In this document: positions 47,981 to 57,568 of the stretch, in pieces
Layout of the letters: each line of letters starts with the position of its first letter
How positions within the stretch are numbered: position 1 is the first letter of the stretch
DNA from: a virus
DNA: 64,000 bases
IMG/VR virus record: IMGVR_UViG_3300031521_000012
Location: 1 to 64,000 of that record
Reading direction: 5' to 3' (one strand)
Program-made: the position numbers and the translations under genes
Notes under the pieces: generated by a model
The model's input: only the letters and a program-made list of their open reading frames with translations
Told to the model about the DNA's origin: nothing
Databases searched by the model: none

Positions 47981-49168
47981 TTAAATATTAAATAGGTGAT
48001 CTCCGAAGCTAGGAAGCATATCATTGCTTGCATCATTTGTATCTTCATCGCCAATCATAAAATCTTCTTCGTTCATTCCATTTGGTTTAGCGCTTATACT
48101 TTTATTGGAAAAGACAAAATAATCTGTTTTATCTCCTTGCGGAAGTATTACGCCATCATAACCTAAGTCACGTAATTGCCCCAAGCCATATTTTTCATAT
48201 TCATTCCAACCAGCAGGTTTATTGATTGTGATGTATCTGGTCATAATATACTTATTACCATGTCCGCCATGCTCACTATTCTTAATGCTGTCAATACTAT
48301 CAGTAAACCAAATAATGCCTTGTGTGCTTCTATTTAAGCTAAATTTACCAAACTTATCATTAGTTCCATGATAAACTTTATATGTTGTTTCATTCATGAA
48401 TGATTGTATTTCTTCGTCAATTGCATCGGTAGCTTGATTGGAATAAGCAACAGGTATTTTATCATCTTTTGTCATACCCGTTATATTTTGAACAGTATTG
48501 AATATAGCACGATAGGTCTCAATGGTAGGATTTTCAAATTTTTTCTTCTGATAAATCTGATAGCCTTCACCTTGAAATTTTAATAATGCATGTGGGTTTA
48601 ATACTACAAGTTCTTGTTCTGATGCCCAATTATCCCATTCGCCTATCTTAACTGCATCAATCTTTCTTAACCATAAATCAACTAAAACATCTTCTATTTC
48701 ATTAGCATCCTCTACATTAGGCATTTTTTCTACAGTAGCACCCTTACGTAATAAAACTGGATAAACCATTCCAAATCGACTCATTCCAGTGAAATTACTG
48801 GCTTCATTTTTACTTTTCGATAAACTAATGCTATGATACTGCTCACCATATCCACCACCGCCTTCGCTGCCCTTTTTAACAAAATTAAAGCCTGCTTGTA
48901 ACCCTTTGCTAACACCGCCACCACTTCCATGCCAATAGATATTATCCATTAATTCTTCTGGACTACTGAATCGTTTTATCTCTTTATAAGCCAAACGTGT
49001 TATTACTGTAAACAAATCTGATTGTGTTGAAAATGACGAAACACCCTTAATCCTTCTAATGATCTTATCTAATGTAAGTTCCCCACGATGATTTGGATAG
49101 TAGTAATGATAGATTTCTTCACCTAGAAAGGATTGGATTTCTTCATTTATAATTTTAATTAAGCTCAT
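47981..49168 (-). CDS. Protein with two putative ADP-ribosyltransferase-fold domains
   Basis: YWHGS...SLS...EQELVV and VYHGT...IWFTDS...GYDGVI; repeated EEIQSF motif; GTATTTAT upstream. Confidence 0.5.
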   Translation of the reverse strand: MSLIKIINEEIQSFLGEEIYHYYYPNHRGELTLDKIIRRIKGVSSFSTQSDLFTVITRLAYKEIKRFSSPEELMDNIYWHGSGGGVSKGLQAGFNFVKKGSEGGGGYGEQYHSISLSKSKNEASNFTGMSRFGMVYPVLLRKGATVEKMPNVEDANEIEDVLVDLWLRKIDAVKIGEWDNWASEQELVVLNPHALLKFQGEGYQIYQKKKFENPTIETYRAIFNTVQNITGMTKDDKIPVAYSNQATDAIDEEIQSFMNETTYKVYHGTNDKFGKFSLNRSTQGIIWFTDSIDSIKNSEHGGHGNKYIMTRYITINKPAGWNEYEKYGLGQLRDLGYDGVILPQGDKTDYFVFSNKSISAKPNGMNEEDFMIGDEDTNDASNDMLPSFGDHLFNI

Positions 49169-53076: not shown

Positions 53077-53499
53077 CTATCTATTGAACCAAATTATGGT
53101 ATCGAAATTCGGTCTGATTGCATTATTCTTCACATCAGAAGGATAAATTTCAATATCAGTTTCTTGATTTTCAATTACATATCTACCGAAACCATCATAA
53201 TCAATAAAACCACCATCTTTAACACATTCAATAAAATTCTCAAGTGACATTACATCACCATATTCGCTTAAAGGTCTTAGAGTATACGGCATAATCATTT
53301 TTCTTTGCTGCATTAATTTGCGCATTGCATCGTTTTCTGGTTTCATGTGTAGTCGAAATTCCTCCCATGATTCATGAAATTCTTTCCAAGTGGAATTAGA
53401 TTTATACATGTTATGTGTTTTATTCCATGTAGTTTCTTTTTCCTCAATTATATCTTCAATTTTTTCAATTTCTAAATCAATTTCTTCTATTCTGGTCAT
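53077..53499 (-). CDS. Hypothetical phage protein
   Basis: F.ECV..GGFIDYDGFG...IIWFNR. Confidence 0.8.
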   Translation of the reverse strand: MTRIEEIDLEIEKIEDIIEEKETTWNKTHNMYKSNSTWKEFHESWEEFRLHMKPENDAMRKLMQQRKMIMPYTLRPLSEYGDVMSLENFIECVKDGGFIDYDGFGRYVIENQETDIEIYPSDVKNNAIRPNFDTIIWFNR

Positions 53500-53512
53500 A
53501 CTATTTTAAATT

Positions 53513-53842
53513 AAAAAAGGTCGCTTGATAATGGGTCGTATAGTTAATGACAAAACCAACGCCAAGGTCAAAGACTCTTCTCGCAACAAAGGCAAGGACA
53601 AAATTAAAGTCTGGTTTTGCGACTAATGATCATTAAGAGCGCAATGCTCTTATTGTAACTTAGAACGCAGCGTAGTCGTTTTATAAAAACCCTACAAAAA
53701 ACTTTAAAAATGCGAGAAGACGGTTTACCATTTAAGTTTGTTAACTGAAAGTTAGTTCATAAAATATGTGTAAACCCATTACCAAGCATAGAGAACTGTA
53801 GACTAGGCTTGTGCTTCGTCTACAATTCACCCTTTAATATCG
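53513..53842 (-). ncRNA. Candidate ~320-nt multi-helix ncRNA downstream of 314-aa gene
   Basis: 14-bp closing helix with minus-strand G-U, 10-bp inner helix, further hairpins; ends in U-run. Confidence 0.65.
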
Positions 53843-54787
53843 TTATTCTACTGAGAGAATTTTCATGAATTCATCAACGGTTGACTGAAAACGTGCATCA
53901 ACGTTGATACGCAATGCTGCAACCTGCTGAATCTTAGCCTGACGTTCCTTTTCGAAGTCAGCCTGAATGCTTTTCATTTTCTGCTGTACTTCTTGCATTG
54001 CAGTTTGCCATGCCGATTGCAATAGATTATTAGCAGCTTCTGCTTCGTGTTGAGCATCTGCATTGATCTTTGCAATACGTGCATTTTCTTCTGTGGTTAA
54101 GTTCTTAACCTTAGCCTTGAAGTAATTAACACGCTGTTCGTAACCACGATGAAGTGTAGCAAGTTCTTCGTGTAATTTAAGTAGCTGATCAGCTGTGTGA
54201 TGCACAGTAATTTCTACTGGTGATTTCATCCCATCAGTAATTGTCATCCATTCGATTGCTGGAAGCGATGGCAATTGAATTCTTAGATTGTCTAAGGTCG
54301 AACCTTGATGAATGAACTGTCCGATATGCGAAGCAAATGCTTCTGCTTCAAGATATTCATTTAGCTCTGCAAGTGAGAGTTGTTCCCAACCATAGCTTTC
54401 ATTAACTTCTGAAAGCATATTCAACAGCGGACTGATTGTTTTAGGTCGTTCAGGCAATTCCACTGTTGAAGTATCAGCTGTTGCTGTTTTCCATTCCTTA
54501 AGCAAACTGTCTTTTGCTTTGATGTTCTCCATCAGGAATGCCTGACAAGCATGAAGCTTTGCCTTAGTTCCGAGCAATTCAACCACATTGGTAGGCATTG
54601 GCTTGCCTACATGAATGACATGAGATTTTACACCACCAACCCCATCGTTGATATTAACTGACTTGGAGTAGTTGTTAACTCCTGATAATTCATTTTCAAT
54701 TTCTCTTGCTCTTTGATTGCAAAGATTGGAAATTGATTGAGCTTGTGATAAGCTTAATCCTGTTGCGCTAAGCGAGTTCTTCTTCAT
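53843..54787 (-). CDS. Coiled-coil-rich hypothetical protein (314 aa)
   Basis: A/E/Q-rich helical sequence; GLSLSQAQSISNLCNQ N-terminus. Confidence 0.85.
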   Translation of the reverse strand: MKKNSLSATGLSLSQAQSISNLCNQRAREIENELSGVNNYSKSVNINDGVGGVKSHVIHVGKPMPTNVVELLGTKAKLHACQAFLMENIKAKDSLLKEWKTATADTSTVELPERPKTISPLLNMLSEVNESYGWEQLSLAELNEYLEAEAFASHIGQFIHQGSTLDNLRIQLPSLPAIEWMTITDGMKSPVEITVHHTADQLLKLHEELATLHRGYEQRVNYFKAKVKNLTTEENARIAKINADAQHEAEAANNLLQSAWQTAMQEVQQKMKSIQADFEKERQAKIQQVAALRINVDARFQSTVDEFMKILSVE

Positions 54788-56333: not shown

Positions 56334-56669
56334 TTAATAATTTAATATTATTTTTACATAATAATAATGAAAGTCACCCTTAATATCAAATATATCAGCT
56401 ACTTGTGATTCAATCTCAATTTTATCAATTGAATCTATTTCAGGCACAATAATAGGATTGCTTGAGTTAATAACATCTAATACCCTTCCGATAATAAAAA
56501 AGTTAGCATTGGTATTATATTGAATACATGAAAGGCTACTTAGTGAATCAACATTTAAGTACTTAGCAAAGACTGTATCAAAATCTTCATCGGGATGATA
56601 TGCTTTCCAGTTTTCATGCCACTTGTAAGAAACAAGTATTCCGTATATAAAATATTGGTCGTTTATCAT
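56334..56669 (-). CDS. Hypothetical protein
   Basis: Co-oriented ORF. Confidence 0.7.
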   Translation of the reverse strand: MINDQYFIYGILVSYKWHENWKAYHPDEDFDTVFAKYLNVDSLSSLSCIQYNTNANFFIIGRVLDVINSSNPIIVPEIDSIDKIEIESQVADIFDIKGDFHYYYVKIILNY

Positions 56670-57568
56670 GGCTTGAATATTACTCCTATCATAAAATTAT
56701 CGATTATTGCAATATTCTTATCATTAGTAATAAATCCAATCTTGTTTAAATGATCGAATAATTCGTAATCCCAATCGCATTCAGTTAGCTGATCGAAAAA
56801 ATGTAGATATCCTCTGTTATTTTCATCAACGATTCCCCAATAGCTATCGTTTTTATTTTTATCGGTCATTATATTAAGGGTGAAGAACATATAACCACCA
56901 TGATTTAATGCACGATATGCTTGTTCAAAATATTCAAACCTATCTTTTTGAGAACAATGCTGCAATACATTAACACAATATACGACATCAAAATATCCTT
57001 CATCCAATAGATAATCAGGAATTCCACTTTTTTCAATTTCAATAAAATTTGAATACTCTTTCAAACATTCTGGTATAATATAATCAATTCCAACATAATC
57101 GTAAGTATCTTTTATTTCACAGAATAAATTTCCATATCCATATCCTATTTCTAATAGCTTTAATTTTTCATTAACAACCTTATTAGATGTTAAATTATCT
57201 AACAATGATATAAGACCCAAATCTTTAGCCATTTTTAATGTGGATTCATTAACTTCTCTTATATTTTTGCAATAATTACCCGATACACTTAACAATGGGA
57301 AATGTTTTCTGCATTCTACCCAAAAATCTTTATTGTTAATATTATTAGGGTGAAATCTTTCAACAGCTTCTTTTTTAACAATTGATTGGTGATTACCATT
57401 ATTAAATAATTTATCACTAATTACTAGGTTTTCCTCATGAAATGTAGTAACTCTTATTGTTGGTTTCAATGAAATGCCCGCCACCTTTTTTCTAAGATAA
57501 TATTCGTTTCGTCTTAACGTAGCGAACCTAATGGCTTTAATTACATCAGTATATGTTTTCATAATCAC
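56666..57568 (-). CDS. Class I SAM-dependent methyltransferase
   Basis: LLEIGYGYG, YVGID, FDVVYCVNVLQH, ALNHGG. Confidence 0.85.
   Translation of the reverse strand: MIMKTYTDVIKAIRFATLRRNEYYLRKKVAGISLKPTIRVTTFHEENLVISDKLFNNGNHQSIVKKEAVERFHPNNINNKDFWVECRKHFPLLSVSGNYCKNIREVNESTLKMAKDLGLISLLDNLTSNKVVNEKLKLLEIGYGYGNLFCEIKDTYDYVGIDYIIPECLKEYSNFIEIEKSGIPDYLLDEGYFDVVYCVNVLQHCSQKDRFEYFEQAYRALNHGGYMFFTLNIMTDKNKNDSYWGIVDENNRGYLHFFDQLTECDWDYELFDHLNKIGFITNDKNIAIIDNFMIGVIFKP

What the first reader, a model, noticed from the sequence alone, without database searches (positions are those of the whole stretch)
53513..54787. Large structured RNA tightly coupled to a coiled-coil protein gene
Seen: the ORF-free 330 nt after the 314-aa gene can form a 14-bp closing helix (53774-53787 with 53523-53536). 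Its one DNA mismatch is a G-U pair only on the minus strand, the gene's strand. Also present: a 10-bp helix (53711-53720/53576-53585), CGACTA/TAGTCG (53620/53673), TAAGAGC/GCTCTTA (53634-53652), TGTAGAC/GTCTACA (53797-53824), a crossing AAAACCA/TGGTTTT pair (possible pseudoknot) and a terminal U-run. Two segments show a hexamer periodicity on minus (TTTGTC CTTGCC TTTGTT; TTTGAC CTTGGC GTTGGT TTTGTC). Inference: an undescribed protein-ncRNA module in which the periodic single-stranded segments may be repeated protein-binding sites or a template.
Basis: partly seen in the sequence, partly recalled or inferred. Interest (0 to 1): 0.75.

Follow-up and report, generated by a model that had tools for sequence, protein, structure and literature searches.

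The report
New phage RNA with partner protein
Right behind a conserved phage gene of unknown fold lies a real, folded RNA of about 320 bases that matches no described RNA family, shows evenly spaced UUG triplets on two single strands, and follows this gene in every related phage examined, so the two probably form an undescribed RNA-protein particle.

Summary
Window 53513-53831 (minus strand) encodes a ~320-nt structured RNA. Over 72 distinct relatives, 97.3% of cells in 40 modelled pairs are standard pairs (41-53% when slid), and all 40 pairs show compensatory changes. G-U outnumbers A-C 11:1, which puts the RNA on the gene's strand. Rfam 15 has no match. The RNA followed the 314-aa gene in all 80 protein-anchored viral loci, next to four distant homologues, and in a 98.6-kb GenBank phage, while flanking genes are conserved in only 3-6 of 80 loci. 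An RNA-first search found no copy without the gene.

Two unpaired tracts carry UUG at a strict 6-nt spacing, in a fixed 3 + 4 pattern. UUG is invariant at nucleotide level, so the tracts are not coding. The spacers are not hypervariable.

The protein has no Pfam, PDB or fold match and is modelled as a homodimer. Contigs from two metatranscriptome studies hold the RNA.

Best reading: a dedicated phage ribonucleoprotein with periodic docking sites. Its function is unknown. The closest analogies (VIPR, TRAP, TIGR-Tas) fail their membership tests.

This scan found the same module earlier on other phage DNA. I found no publication describing it.

The parts
53843..54787 (-). Partner protein gene, 314 aa (P0001). 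No known family or fold. Modelled as a symmetric homodimer.
   Evidence: ORF. No Pfam, PHROG or PADLOC match. AF2 pLDDT 88.5, pTM 0.80. No fold match. More than 2500 homologues and 791 clusters at 50% identity. Dimer model.
53832..53850 (-). A/T-rich box overlapping the stop codon, 3-7 nt upstream of the invariant GGU that opens the RNA. Relatives read TAAAATAAT-like; this window reads GATATTAAA. Candidate -10 or late-type promoter, or a processing site (inference).
   Evidence: Alignment of 54 upstream regions. The box is kept even where another ORF sits between the gene and the RNA. The sigma-70 scan finds no promoter here.
53513..53831 (-). The structured non-coding RNA, from the invariant GGU to the U-run.
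   Evidence: Contigs in RNA libraries at 53524-53729 and 53538-53817.
53793..53828 (-). P1 hairpin: 11-bp stem around a 14-nt loop (53804-53817, GAAGCACAAGCCUA) that contains a GC/GC mini-stem. The loop sequence is conserved in 54 of 72 relatives.
   Evidence: 10 of 11 pairs show compensatory change, 97.2% of cells paired. Loop conservation.
53774..53788 (-). P2, 5' strand of the 15-bp long-range closing helix.
   Evidence: 15 of 15 pairs show compensatory change, 98.2% paired over 72 sequences.
53522..53536 (-). P2, 3' strand.
53721..53773 (-). Variable region between P2 and P3. It holds an extra hairpin of varying length in many relatives and ends in the conserved ACCG just before P3.
53711..53720 (-). 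P3, 5' strand (10 bp).
   Evidence: 10 of 10 pairs show compensatory change, 97.3% paired. A variant in an RNA library carries two compensatory pair changes (53714/53582 and 53715/53581).
53576..53585 (-). P3, 3' strand. It lies between the two UUG tracts.
53672..53695 (-). P4 hairpin (GUAG/CUAC plus an inner GUUUU/AAAAC). Shortened in other clades.
   Evidence: 7 of 7 pairs show compensatory change, 98.4% paired.
53618..53669 (-). P5 arm: P5a (UGCG/CGCA), P5b (UAA/UUA), a conserved internal loop (GUUAC / GAUAA-like), and the variable tip hairpin UAAGAGC/GCUCUUA.
   Evidence: P5a 93% and P5b 99% paired, with compensatory changes. Conserved loop letters.
53605..53612 (-). Conserved unpaired AGACUU(A/U)R box just before tract A. 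Its UAG in relatives is in hexamer register.
53587..53604 (-). Tract A: three UUG triplets 6 nt apart (UUG-n-C-y units), unpaired, inside the P3 junction.
53539..53575 (-). Tract B: four UUG triplets 6 nt apart, followed by degenerate UUA/UAG units and an invariant CUAUA. Unpaired, between P3 and P2.
53513..53521 (-). 3' tail: ACC plus a U6 run directly after P2. Probable 3' end.
   Evidence: One clade has a separate GC-rich terminator hairpin further on.

Best explanation
Window 53513-53831 (minus strand) encodes a discrete RNA of about 320 nt. A 5' hairpin (P1) is followed by a domain closed by a 15-bp long-range helix (P2). Inside it, a second helix (P3) encloses two arms (P4, P5).

This scaffold holds two long single strands that carry UUG triplets exactly 6 nt apart. 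Three lie before the 3' strand of P3 and four after it, with degenerate units at the flanks.

The RNA works together with the 314-aa protein encoded just upstream, a helical protein of unknown fold that is modelled as a symmetric dimer. I propose that the two form a dedicated phage ribonucleoprotein in which the UUG units are periodic docking sites: the invariant triplet is read and the three spacer bases act as linkers. The two tracts may be served by the two halves of the dimer, or by further copies stacked along the strand.

Shown: the RNA structure, its strand, its conservation, its strict linkage to the gene, the nucleotide-level periodicity, and its presence in RNA libraries.
Inferred: direct binding of this protein to the tracts, the stoichiometry, and any cellular role. 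The module sits in an early-type block of small genes in a T4-like phage, which would fit host takeover or conflict between phages.
For: Structure:
- 13 close relatives: 96.4% of cells paired against 38-52% when slid; 35 of 41 pairs with compensatory change; 0 of 500 shuffles as high.
- 72 distinct sequences aligned by covariance model R1: 97.3% against 41-53%; 40 of 40 pairs compensatory; 0 of 500 shuffles (that alignment is fitted to the model).
- The top mutual-information pairs are these same helices.

Strand: G-U 6.8% against A-C 0.6% of paired cells.

New family: no Rfam match at gathering scores or at E up to 10.

Linkage:
- R1 hits at full length in all 80 protein-anchored loci, except two loci that end inside the RNA and give truncated hits.
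- Flanking genes are conserved in only 3-6 of those 80 loci.
- In the RNA-first pattern search, all 15 evaluable loci have the gene just upstream.
- Distant homologues also carry the RNA downstream, with E-values of 1e-10 to 1e-15.
- Order and strand are kept even where unrelated ORFs are inserted between gene and RNA.

Periodicity: the UUG spacing is 6 in 112 of 160 intervals, with a fixed 3 + 4 pattern.

Single-stranded tracts: the tract columns covary with nothing.

Dimer: score 0.45, best of 3 controls 0.00. The mark was reached by 20 of 30 proteins solved as pairs of one chain and 1 of 23 solved as single chains. These counts hold only roughly because my own alignment was used. The runs agree in at least 98% of contacts, and partner pLDDT is at least 85.

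RNA libraries: contigs from two studies hold 53524-53729 (100% identity) and 53538-53817 (about 96%). The latter carries two compensatory changes in P3.
Against: - No binding was measured or modelled between the protein and the RNA.
- The protein is mildly acidic overall (pI about 6) and has no recognisable RNA-binding domain.
- A dimer offers two or four equivalent sites, not seven or more. One protomer per hexamer would require further oligomerisation, which was not tested.
- The linkage could arise from shared transcription alone.
- Contigs in RNA libraries can contain DNA, so transcription is not proven.
- The spacing between tracts A and B is 18 nt in some phages and 19 in others, so one continuous register is not kept.
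Confidence: 0.55

Rival explanations
1. Decoy or sponge. The RNA titrates a host (or other phage) RNA-binding protein that reads U-U-G at 6-nt spacing, as CsrB/RsmZ titrate CsrA or as the trp leader wraps TRAP. The upstream gene is linked only because both are made from one transcription unit, or because it processes or stabilises the RNA.
For: - Periodic invariant triplets with loosely constrained spacers are what multi-subunit RNA binders read.
- The partner protein has no known RNA-binding domain and is acidic.
- The locus sits in an early-type block of small genes in a T4-like phage.
Against: - The gene-RNA pair is kept while every neighbour changes.
- The pair survives insertion of other ORFs.
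- An A/T-rich box that travels with the RNA suggests it need not depend on the gene's promoter. Pure co-transcription therefore explains the linkage poorly.
- No TRAP family gene is found in the 168 kb held, though the host is unknown.
Confidence: 0.17
2. Guide RNA with a gapped code. As in VIPR, the invariant triplets are held by the protein, and the variable spacer bases together specify a DNA or RNA target in a competing element or the host.
For: - VIPR shows that phage RNAs with alternating conserved and variable positions can guide a protein to DNA (bioRxiv 10.64898/2026.04.26.720920).
- Tract-B spacers change faster than stems among close relatives: 10.1% against 3.1%.
- The protein is modelled as a dimer and there are two tracts, loosely like the Tas dimer with dual-spacer tigRNA.
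Against: - The spacers are not hypervariable. Near-identical tracts are shared by several distinct phages, and tract-A spacers are more conserved than stems (2.3% close, 22.9% far, against 47.6% for stems).
- The repeat number is fixed, with one RNA per genome fragment and no array.
- There is no contiguous or gapped complement above chance in the phage's own 168 kb.
- The protein shows no RAMP or Nop signature.
Confidence: 0.12
3. RNA that acts on its own, either as a self-assembling RNA-only particle (as shown for GOLLD and ROOL) or as a ribozyme, with the protein as an accessory.
For: It is a large, ornate, phage-borne RNA of unknown function, like GOLLD and ROOL (bioRxiv 10.1101/2024.12.08.627333). 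It has many conserved unpaired positions.
Against: - It is shorter than ROOL or GOLLD and matches neither model.
- The strict pairing with one protein gene is not a feature of those RNAs.
- No known ribozyme motif was found.
Confidence: 0.08
4. Cis-acting element: a 3' UTR, terminator or leader that only controls the neighbouring genes.
For: It lies between two genes on the same strand and ends in a U-run. P1 is followed by a U-rich stretch in many relatives.
Against: - About 320 nt with five covarying helices and invariant periodic triplets is far beyond what a terminator needs.
- The downstream gene differs in nearly all relatives.
- The element keeps its own upstream box when displaced from the gene.
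Confidence: 0.04
5. The periodic tracts encode a small peptide, on either strand.
For: The window has a 31-codon antisense ORF (53531-53626, plus strand). About a third of relatives have a 14-25-codon Lys/Ser-rich antisense ORF.
Against: - An ATG-started ORF of 25 or more codons occurs in only 6 of 69 sequences antisense and 2 of 69 sense.
- The tract A to tract B distance shifts by 1 nt between phages.
- UUG is invariant at all three bases while neighbouring positions vary. In every frame this fixes a third codon position and frees first positions.
- The P3 strand inside the putative ORF covaries as RNA.
Confidence: 0.01

Closest known systems
VIPR systems (Vipr RAMP protein + vrRNA; bioRxiv 10.64898/2026.04.26.720920)
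   Same: Phage-borne pair of one protein gene and an adjacent non-coding RNA. The RNA's single strand alternates invariant and variable positions with a strict short period, next to a structured invariant part.
   Different: - The period is 6 (UUG + 3), not 5 (GGY + NN).
- There are 3 + 4 fixed units embedded in a ~320-nt nested scaffold, not 9-16 units in a ~100-nt RNA with a 3' tail.
- There is a single RNA, not an array.
- The spacers are not hypervariable.
- The protein is helical with no RAMP signature.
TRAP (MtrB) bound to the Bacillus trp leader
   Same: Triplets ending in G ((G/U)AG there; UUG, less often UAG or GUG, here), repeated with 2-3-nt unconstrained spacers on a single strand. 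This is the classic signature of an oligomeric protein reading one triplet per subunit.
   Different: - There is no TRAP-family protein here.
- The triplet differs.
- The repeats are split into two tracts by a helix strand and displayed on a large scaffold.
- It is a trans-acting phage RNA rather than a leader attenuator.
TIGR-Tas (Tas dimer + dual-spacer tigRNA)
   Same: Found in phages; a protein dimer; an RNA with two separate single-stranded functional segments.
   Different: No tandem array of about 36-nt units. No Nop-domain signature. The tracts have internal 6-nt periodicity with invariant UUG.
GOLLD (RF01998) and ROOL (RF03087) large phage or prophage RNAs
   Same: Large, elaborately folded, phage-associated RNAs first seen only by comparative genomics, with function unknown.
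   Different: No match to either model. This RNA is smaller. Unlike them, it is locked to one specific protein gene and carries periodic single-stranded tracts.
CsrB/RsmZ-type sponge RNAs
   Same: A structured RNA that displays many copies of a short motif to bind several copies of a protein.
   Different: Those motifs (GGA) sit in hairpin loops at irregular spacing, and the protein (CsrA) is encoded elsewhere. Here the motifs lie in phase on open strands, next to a dedicated gene.

Membership tests
VIPR | Partner protein is a RAMP (RRM core, G-loop, thumb) | tested here: inconclusive
   - No Pfam match at all for P0001.
- No PF03787 in the 168 kb held.
- The AF2 model runs helix, beta-hairpin, long helix, twice over, which is not the RRM order.
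- Fold searches list no RAMP, but an unlisted family is not excluded.
VIPR | vrRNA of about 100 nt with 9-16 tandem YNNGG units; GGY conserved, NN hypervariable | tested here: not met
   - The period is 6 with invariant UUG and a fixed 3 + 4 units.
- The RNA is about 320 nt with nested helices.
- Spacer divergence among close relatives is 2.3% (tract A) and 10.1% (tract B), against 3.1% in stems.
VIPR | Variable positions match natural targets under a fixed skip rule | tested here: inconclusive
   Skip 0-3 scans of the phage's own 168 kb give nothing above shuffled controls. Host and competitor genomes are not known.
TRAP / trp leader | TRAP (TrpBP, PF02081) ring protein | tested here: not met
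   P0001 has no PF02081 match. None is present in the genome fragment, and the control genome (B. subtilis) rings. The fragment is about half the genome and the host is unknown.
TRAP / trp leader | 9-11 (G/U)AG triplets with 2-3-nt spacers | tested here: not met
   The triplet is UUG (sometimes UAG or GUG), the spacers are exactly 3 nt, and there are 3 + 4 core units in two tracts.
TIGR-Tas | Tandem array of about 36-nt repeat/spacer units | tested here: not met
   Tandem Repeats Finder finds no such array in 53300-54000. There is one RNA copy in the genome fragment.
TIGR-Tas | Tas protein with a Nop domain | tested here: inconclusive
   No Pfam match. No Nop or Tas chain appears among the fold matches, which does not exclude the fold.
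Any Rfam 15 family (including GOLLD RF01998, ROOL RF03087, tmRNA, 6S, RNase P) | Match to the family's covariance model at its gathering score | tested here: not met
   No match in the whole window at gathering scores. At E up to 10 on 53400-53950, only a chance 13-bit snoRNA hit inside the protein gene. ARAGORN finds no tRNA or tmRNA.

The most novel reading that the evidence does not exclude
The pair is a new class of phage nucleic-acid-recognition machine, unrelated in descent to CRISPR, VIPR and TIGR-Tas. A protein dimer holds the invariant UUG of each hexamer on two displayed strands and presents the three intervening bases as a gapped reading head for a DNA or RNA target.
Probability: 0.12. 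Interest if true: 0.95.

Novelty: categorically new. Interest (0 to 1): 0.8.

Why it matters
A structured RNA of this size is rare to find undescribed, especially one conserved across hundreds of uncultured phages (from 98-kb gut phages to jumbo phages of more than 400 kb) and always paired with one protein of unknown fold.

Its strictly phased UUG tracts on an ornate scaffold point to a defined RNA-protein architecture with no solved precedent. Recent work on VIPR and TIGR-Tas shows that phage RNAs with odd repeat grammars can hide new principles of nucleic-acid recognition.

Even if this one is 'only' a sponge or a structural particle, it adds a new RNA family and a new protein family, and it gives a clear, testable pair for biochemistry and cryo-EM.

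It also corrects annotation. At least one GenBank phage record calls a protein-coding gene over this RNA.

Tried and rejected
Searches that found nothing:
- Known RNA families: no Rfam match at gathering scores or at loose E-values. No tRNA or tmRNA.
I modelled the P2-enclosed domain (R1) and counted P1 separately on A4.
- Targets: no contiguous complement (with or without G-U) and no gapped spacer match (skips 0-3) above shuffled controls in the phage's own 168 kb. This is inconclusive, because half the genome and the host are missing.
- Protein identity: Pfam, PHROGs, PADLOC, PDB sequence profile, Foldseek against PDB and BFVD, VIA-align wide, and the ESM Atlas by shape and by features gave only generic helical-bundle or coiled-coil noise, or uncharacterised phage proteins.
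- Cultured carriers: blastn and tblastn of P0001 and P0233 against 50,697 GenBank phage records found nothing. The distant P0269 found only two uncultured faecal phages.
- Bacterial genomes: the loose DNA pattern scan of genome contigs gave 120 rows, none with the RNA by profile search.
- No sigma-70 promoter or canonical hairpin terminator was found at the RNA's ends.

Readings rejected:
The MI scan gave no other pseudoknot. A possible GAC/GUC contact across P3 cannot be judged because both sides are nearly invariant.
- Coding: no conserved ORF on either strand.
- A tRNA after the RNA in L320 looked to me like a suppressor, but ARAGORN reads it as tRNA-Arg(TCT).

Not usable as evidence:
- Metatranscriptomes: the laid contigs cover only 53524-53817 and nothing on the flanking genes. 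Holes in contig data prove nothing, so this is not counted as evidence of a discrete or abundant RNA.
Full report
**Context**

The window is the first 64 kb of a 167,971-bp IMG/VR virus record that CheckV rates 51% complete. That suggests a jumbo phage of about 330 kb. It carries T4-type genes: rIIA, rIIB, a Dda-like helicase and a UvrD-like helicase. The finding lies in a long run of small minus-strand genes.

**The observation**

The 314-aa ORF (53843-54787, minus strand) is followed by 343 nt without an ORF.
- As RNA, this gap folds to -94 kcal/mol, against -68.3 +/- 5.4 for dinucleotide shuffles (z = -4.8). The opposite strand also folds well, so folding energy alone does not give the strand.
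- Rfam 15 has no match at gathering scores in the whole window, and nothing meaningful at E up to 10.
- ARAGORN finds no tRNA or tmRNA.

**Conservation**

The protein has more than 2500 homologues in metagenomes, on contigs up to 643 kb, and 791 clusters at 50% identity.

I fetched 80 viral loci anchored on the protein.
- Nearly all have a gap of about 280-550 nt behind the gene.
- A single-sequence nhmmer search with the window's 343 nt already finds full-length nucleotide similarity in about 45 of them, where protein identity is only 50-65%.
- In some loci the element sits 200-1600 nt further downstream, because unrelated ORFs are inserted. One of these is an RHS-repeat protein.

**Structure**

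On 13 close relatives (A4) I wrote a structure by hand: P1, a two-pair mini-stem in its loop, P2, P3 and P5b.
- 96.4% of cells are standard pairs, against 38-52% when the partner is slid by 1-3 columns.
- 35 of 41 pairs show a change on both sides.
- 0 of 500 shuffles reach the observed values.

I therefore built R1 for the P2-enclosed domain (285 positions, 40 pairs).
- R1 matches at full length in every one of the 80 loci, except two loci that end inside the RNA and give truncated hits, and in further loci (95 matches, E-values from 1e-16 to 1e-68 for whole hits).
- On the resulting 72 distinct sequences, 97.3% of cells pair (41-53% slid), all 40 pairs show compensatory change (732 cells), and 0 of 500 shuffles reach this.
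- That alignment is fitted to the model. As an independent check, my mutual-information ranking is led by the same pairs.
- G-U pairs make up 6.8% of paired cells and A-C 0.6%, so the RNA is read from the gene's strand.

Architecture in this window, 5' to 3' on the minus strand:

| Element | Coordinates | Notes |
|---|---|---|
| P1 hairpin | 53793-53828 | Loop GAAGCACAAGCCUA is conserved |
| P2 | 53774-53788 with 53522-53536 | Long-range closing helix |
| Variable stretch | 53721-53773 | |
| P3 | 53711-53720 with 53576-53585 | |
| P4 | 53672-53695 | |
| P5 | 53618-53669 | |
| AGACUU box | 53605-53612 | Conserved, unpaired |
| Tract A | 53587-53604 | |
| P3 3' strand | 53576-53585 | Lies between the tracts |
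| Tract B | 53539-53575 | Ends in invariant CUAUA |
| P2 3' strand, then ACC and U6 | to 53513 | |

**The periodic tracts**

- Across 29 sequences, UUG-to-UUG spacing is exactly 6 in 112 of 160 intervals. Most of the rest are 12, 18 or 19.
- The pattern is fixed: three UUG units in tract A and four in tract B, with degenerate UAG, UUA or UAU units in register at the flanks.
- The distance across the P3 strand is 18 or 19 nt, so the two tracts are not always in one register.
- In tract A the unit is UUG-n-C-y, and its spacers are conserved. In tract B the spacers drift about as fast as stem positions.
- Among close pairs, divergence is 2.3% (A spacers), 10.1% (B spacers), 3.1% (stems) and 7.3% (other unpaired positions). 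These are not hypervariable guide positions.
- The tracts covary with nothing.
- They are not coding. No ORF is conserved on either strand. All three bases of UUG are invariant while neighbouring positions vary, which is the opposite of codon-type constraint.

**Linkage to the gene**

- Each of the seven neighbouring genes of the window has a homologue in at most 6 of the 80 loci, whereas the gene-RNA pair is in all of them.
- A search starting from the RNA (a DNA pattern, then a profile) found 17 further viral loci with the whole RNA. All 15 that have enough flank carry the gene just upstream on the same strand.
- Three distant homologues (profile E-values 1e-29 to 1e-41) are each followed by the RNA, with E-values of 1e-11 to 1e-15. 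Their P2 and P3 sequences are entirely different and P4/P5 are reduced.
- A complete 98.6-kb faecal phage in GenBank (PQ006092.1) also has it (E = 2e-10), under a CDS annotated as hypothetical. The module is therefore not confined to jumbo phages.
- The genome fragment holds one copy of each partner.
- An A/T-rich TAAAATAAT-like box lies 3-7 nt before the invariant GGU in most relatives, including those with an inserted ORF. This may be a promoter or a processing site.

**The protein**

- There is no Pfam, PHROG or PADLOC family and no PDB relative by sequence profile.
- AlphaFold2 with 54 homologues gives a confident model: pLDDT 88.5, pTM 0.80. It runs helix, beta-hairpin, long helix, twice over, followed by C-terminal helices.
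- Foldseek against PDB gives nothing below E = 0.04. BFVD returns only an uncharacterised phage homologue. VIA-align gives Z of at most 8.1 to unrelated helical bundles. The Atlas returns only hypothetical viral clusters.
- The protein is mildly acidic, with a basic N-terminal third.
- A two-copy model supports a symmetric homodimer. The score is 0.45 and the best of 3 controls is 0.00. The mark was reached by 20 of 30 proteins solved as pairs of one chain and 1 of 23 solved as single chains; these counts hold only roughly with my own alignment. The runs agree in at least 98% of contacts, and partner pLDDT is at least 85.
- The invariant Ser/Asn/Gln face of helix 1 (residues 12-26) and the KAKVK stretch (224-228) are not among the confident interface residues. 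My inference is that they are candidate RNA-contact surfaces.

**Expression**

Two metatranscriptome runs from two studies (wetland 2024, freshwater 2025) hold part of the stretch.
- When laid, their contigs cover 53524-53729 at 100% identity and 53538-53817 at about 96%.
- The second variant differs at 53714, 53715, 53581 and 53582. These are the two partners of two adjacent P3 pairs: U-A becomes C-G, and C-G becomes U-A.
- Contigs from RNA libraries can include DNA, so this is compatible with transcription but does not prove it.

**Comparison with known systems**

- VIPR pairs a RAMP protein with ~100-nt RNAs made of 9-16 YNNGG units. The hypervariable NN bases read DNA by a gapped code.
- The logic (invariant and variable positions alternating in phase, next to a dedicated phage gene) resembles this case. 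Every defining feature that I could test differs: the period, the motif, the fixed count, the scaffold, the lack of hypervariable positions and the lack of any RAMP signature.
- TRAP with its trp leader is the best mechanistic analogy for reading triplets at fixed spacing, but no TRAP gene is present.
- TIGR-Tas shares only the dimer and the two segments.
- GOLLD and ROOL share only size and phage habitat.

**Verdict**

This is a real RNA family, not in Rfam and not found in the literature I could search. It is coupled to a new protein family. It most likely forms a phage ribonucleoprotein in which phased UUG units are docking sites. Its function is unknown.

Other agents of this scan reached the same module independently on other phage genomes. 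That is not independent evidence, but it shows the finding recurs.

Noticed in passing
L326:2445-2621 (PQ006092.1 88046-88222): GenBank annotates a 58-aa hypothetical protein exactly over the RNA homologue (R1 hit at L326:2449-2660, E = 2e-10). This is probably a miscalled CDS.
   Followed up: partly
L021:4014-5420; L064:3911-4180; L073:3911-4219; L070:3921-4454: In several relatives, unrelated ORFs are inserted between the partner gene and the RNA. One is a 468-aa RHS-repeat protein and the others have no family. Order and strand of the pair are kept.
   Followed up: partly
window 53531-53626 (+): A 31-codon Lys-rich antisense ORF lies over the tracts. Similar 14-25-codon K/S-rich antisense ORFs recur in roughly a third of relatives and are absent in the rest. 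They look like a by-product of the (NNN-CAA) complement of the UUG repeats.
   Followed up: yes
window 53832-53850 (-) and 54 relatives: A conserved A/T-rich TAAAATAAT-like box lies 3-7 nt upstream of the invariant GGU at the RNA's start. It resembles a -10 or T4-late-type element. The phage's real promoter types were not worked out.
   Followed up: partly
L320:4419-4491: A tRNA-Arg(TCT) gene sits 9 nt after the RNA homologue in a distant relative, and two more tRNA genes lie upstream of the partner gene.
   Followed up: no
window 47981-49168 (-): A 395-aa protein with an ADP-ribosyltransferase (ART-PolyVal) domain lies a few kb downstream in the same gene block. A methyltransferase-domain protein is at 56666-57568.
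   Followed up: no
L323:1616-2959: In one distant relative, the partner gene directly follows a PIF1/Dda-type helicase and an RNase H gene. In the window, a Dda-like helicase lies about 7 kb upstream on the same strand. This is a loose link to the replication/early region.
   Followed up: no
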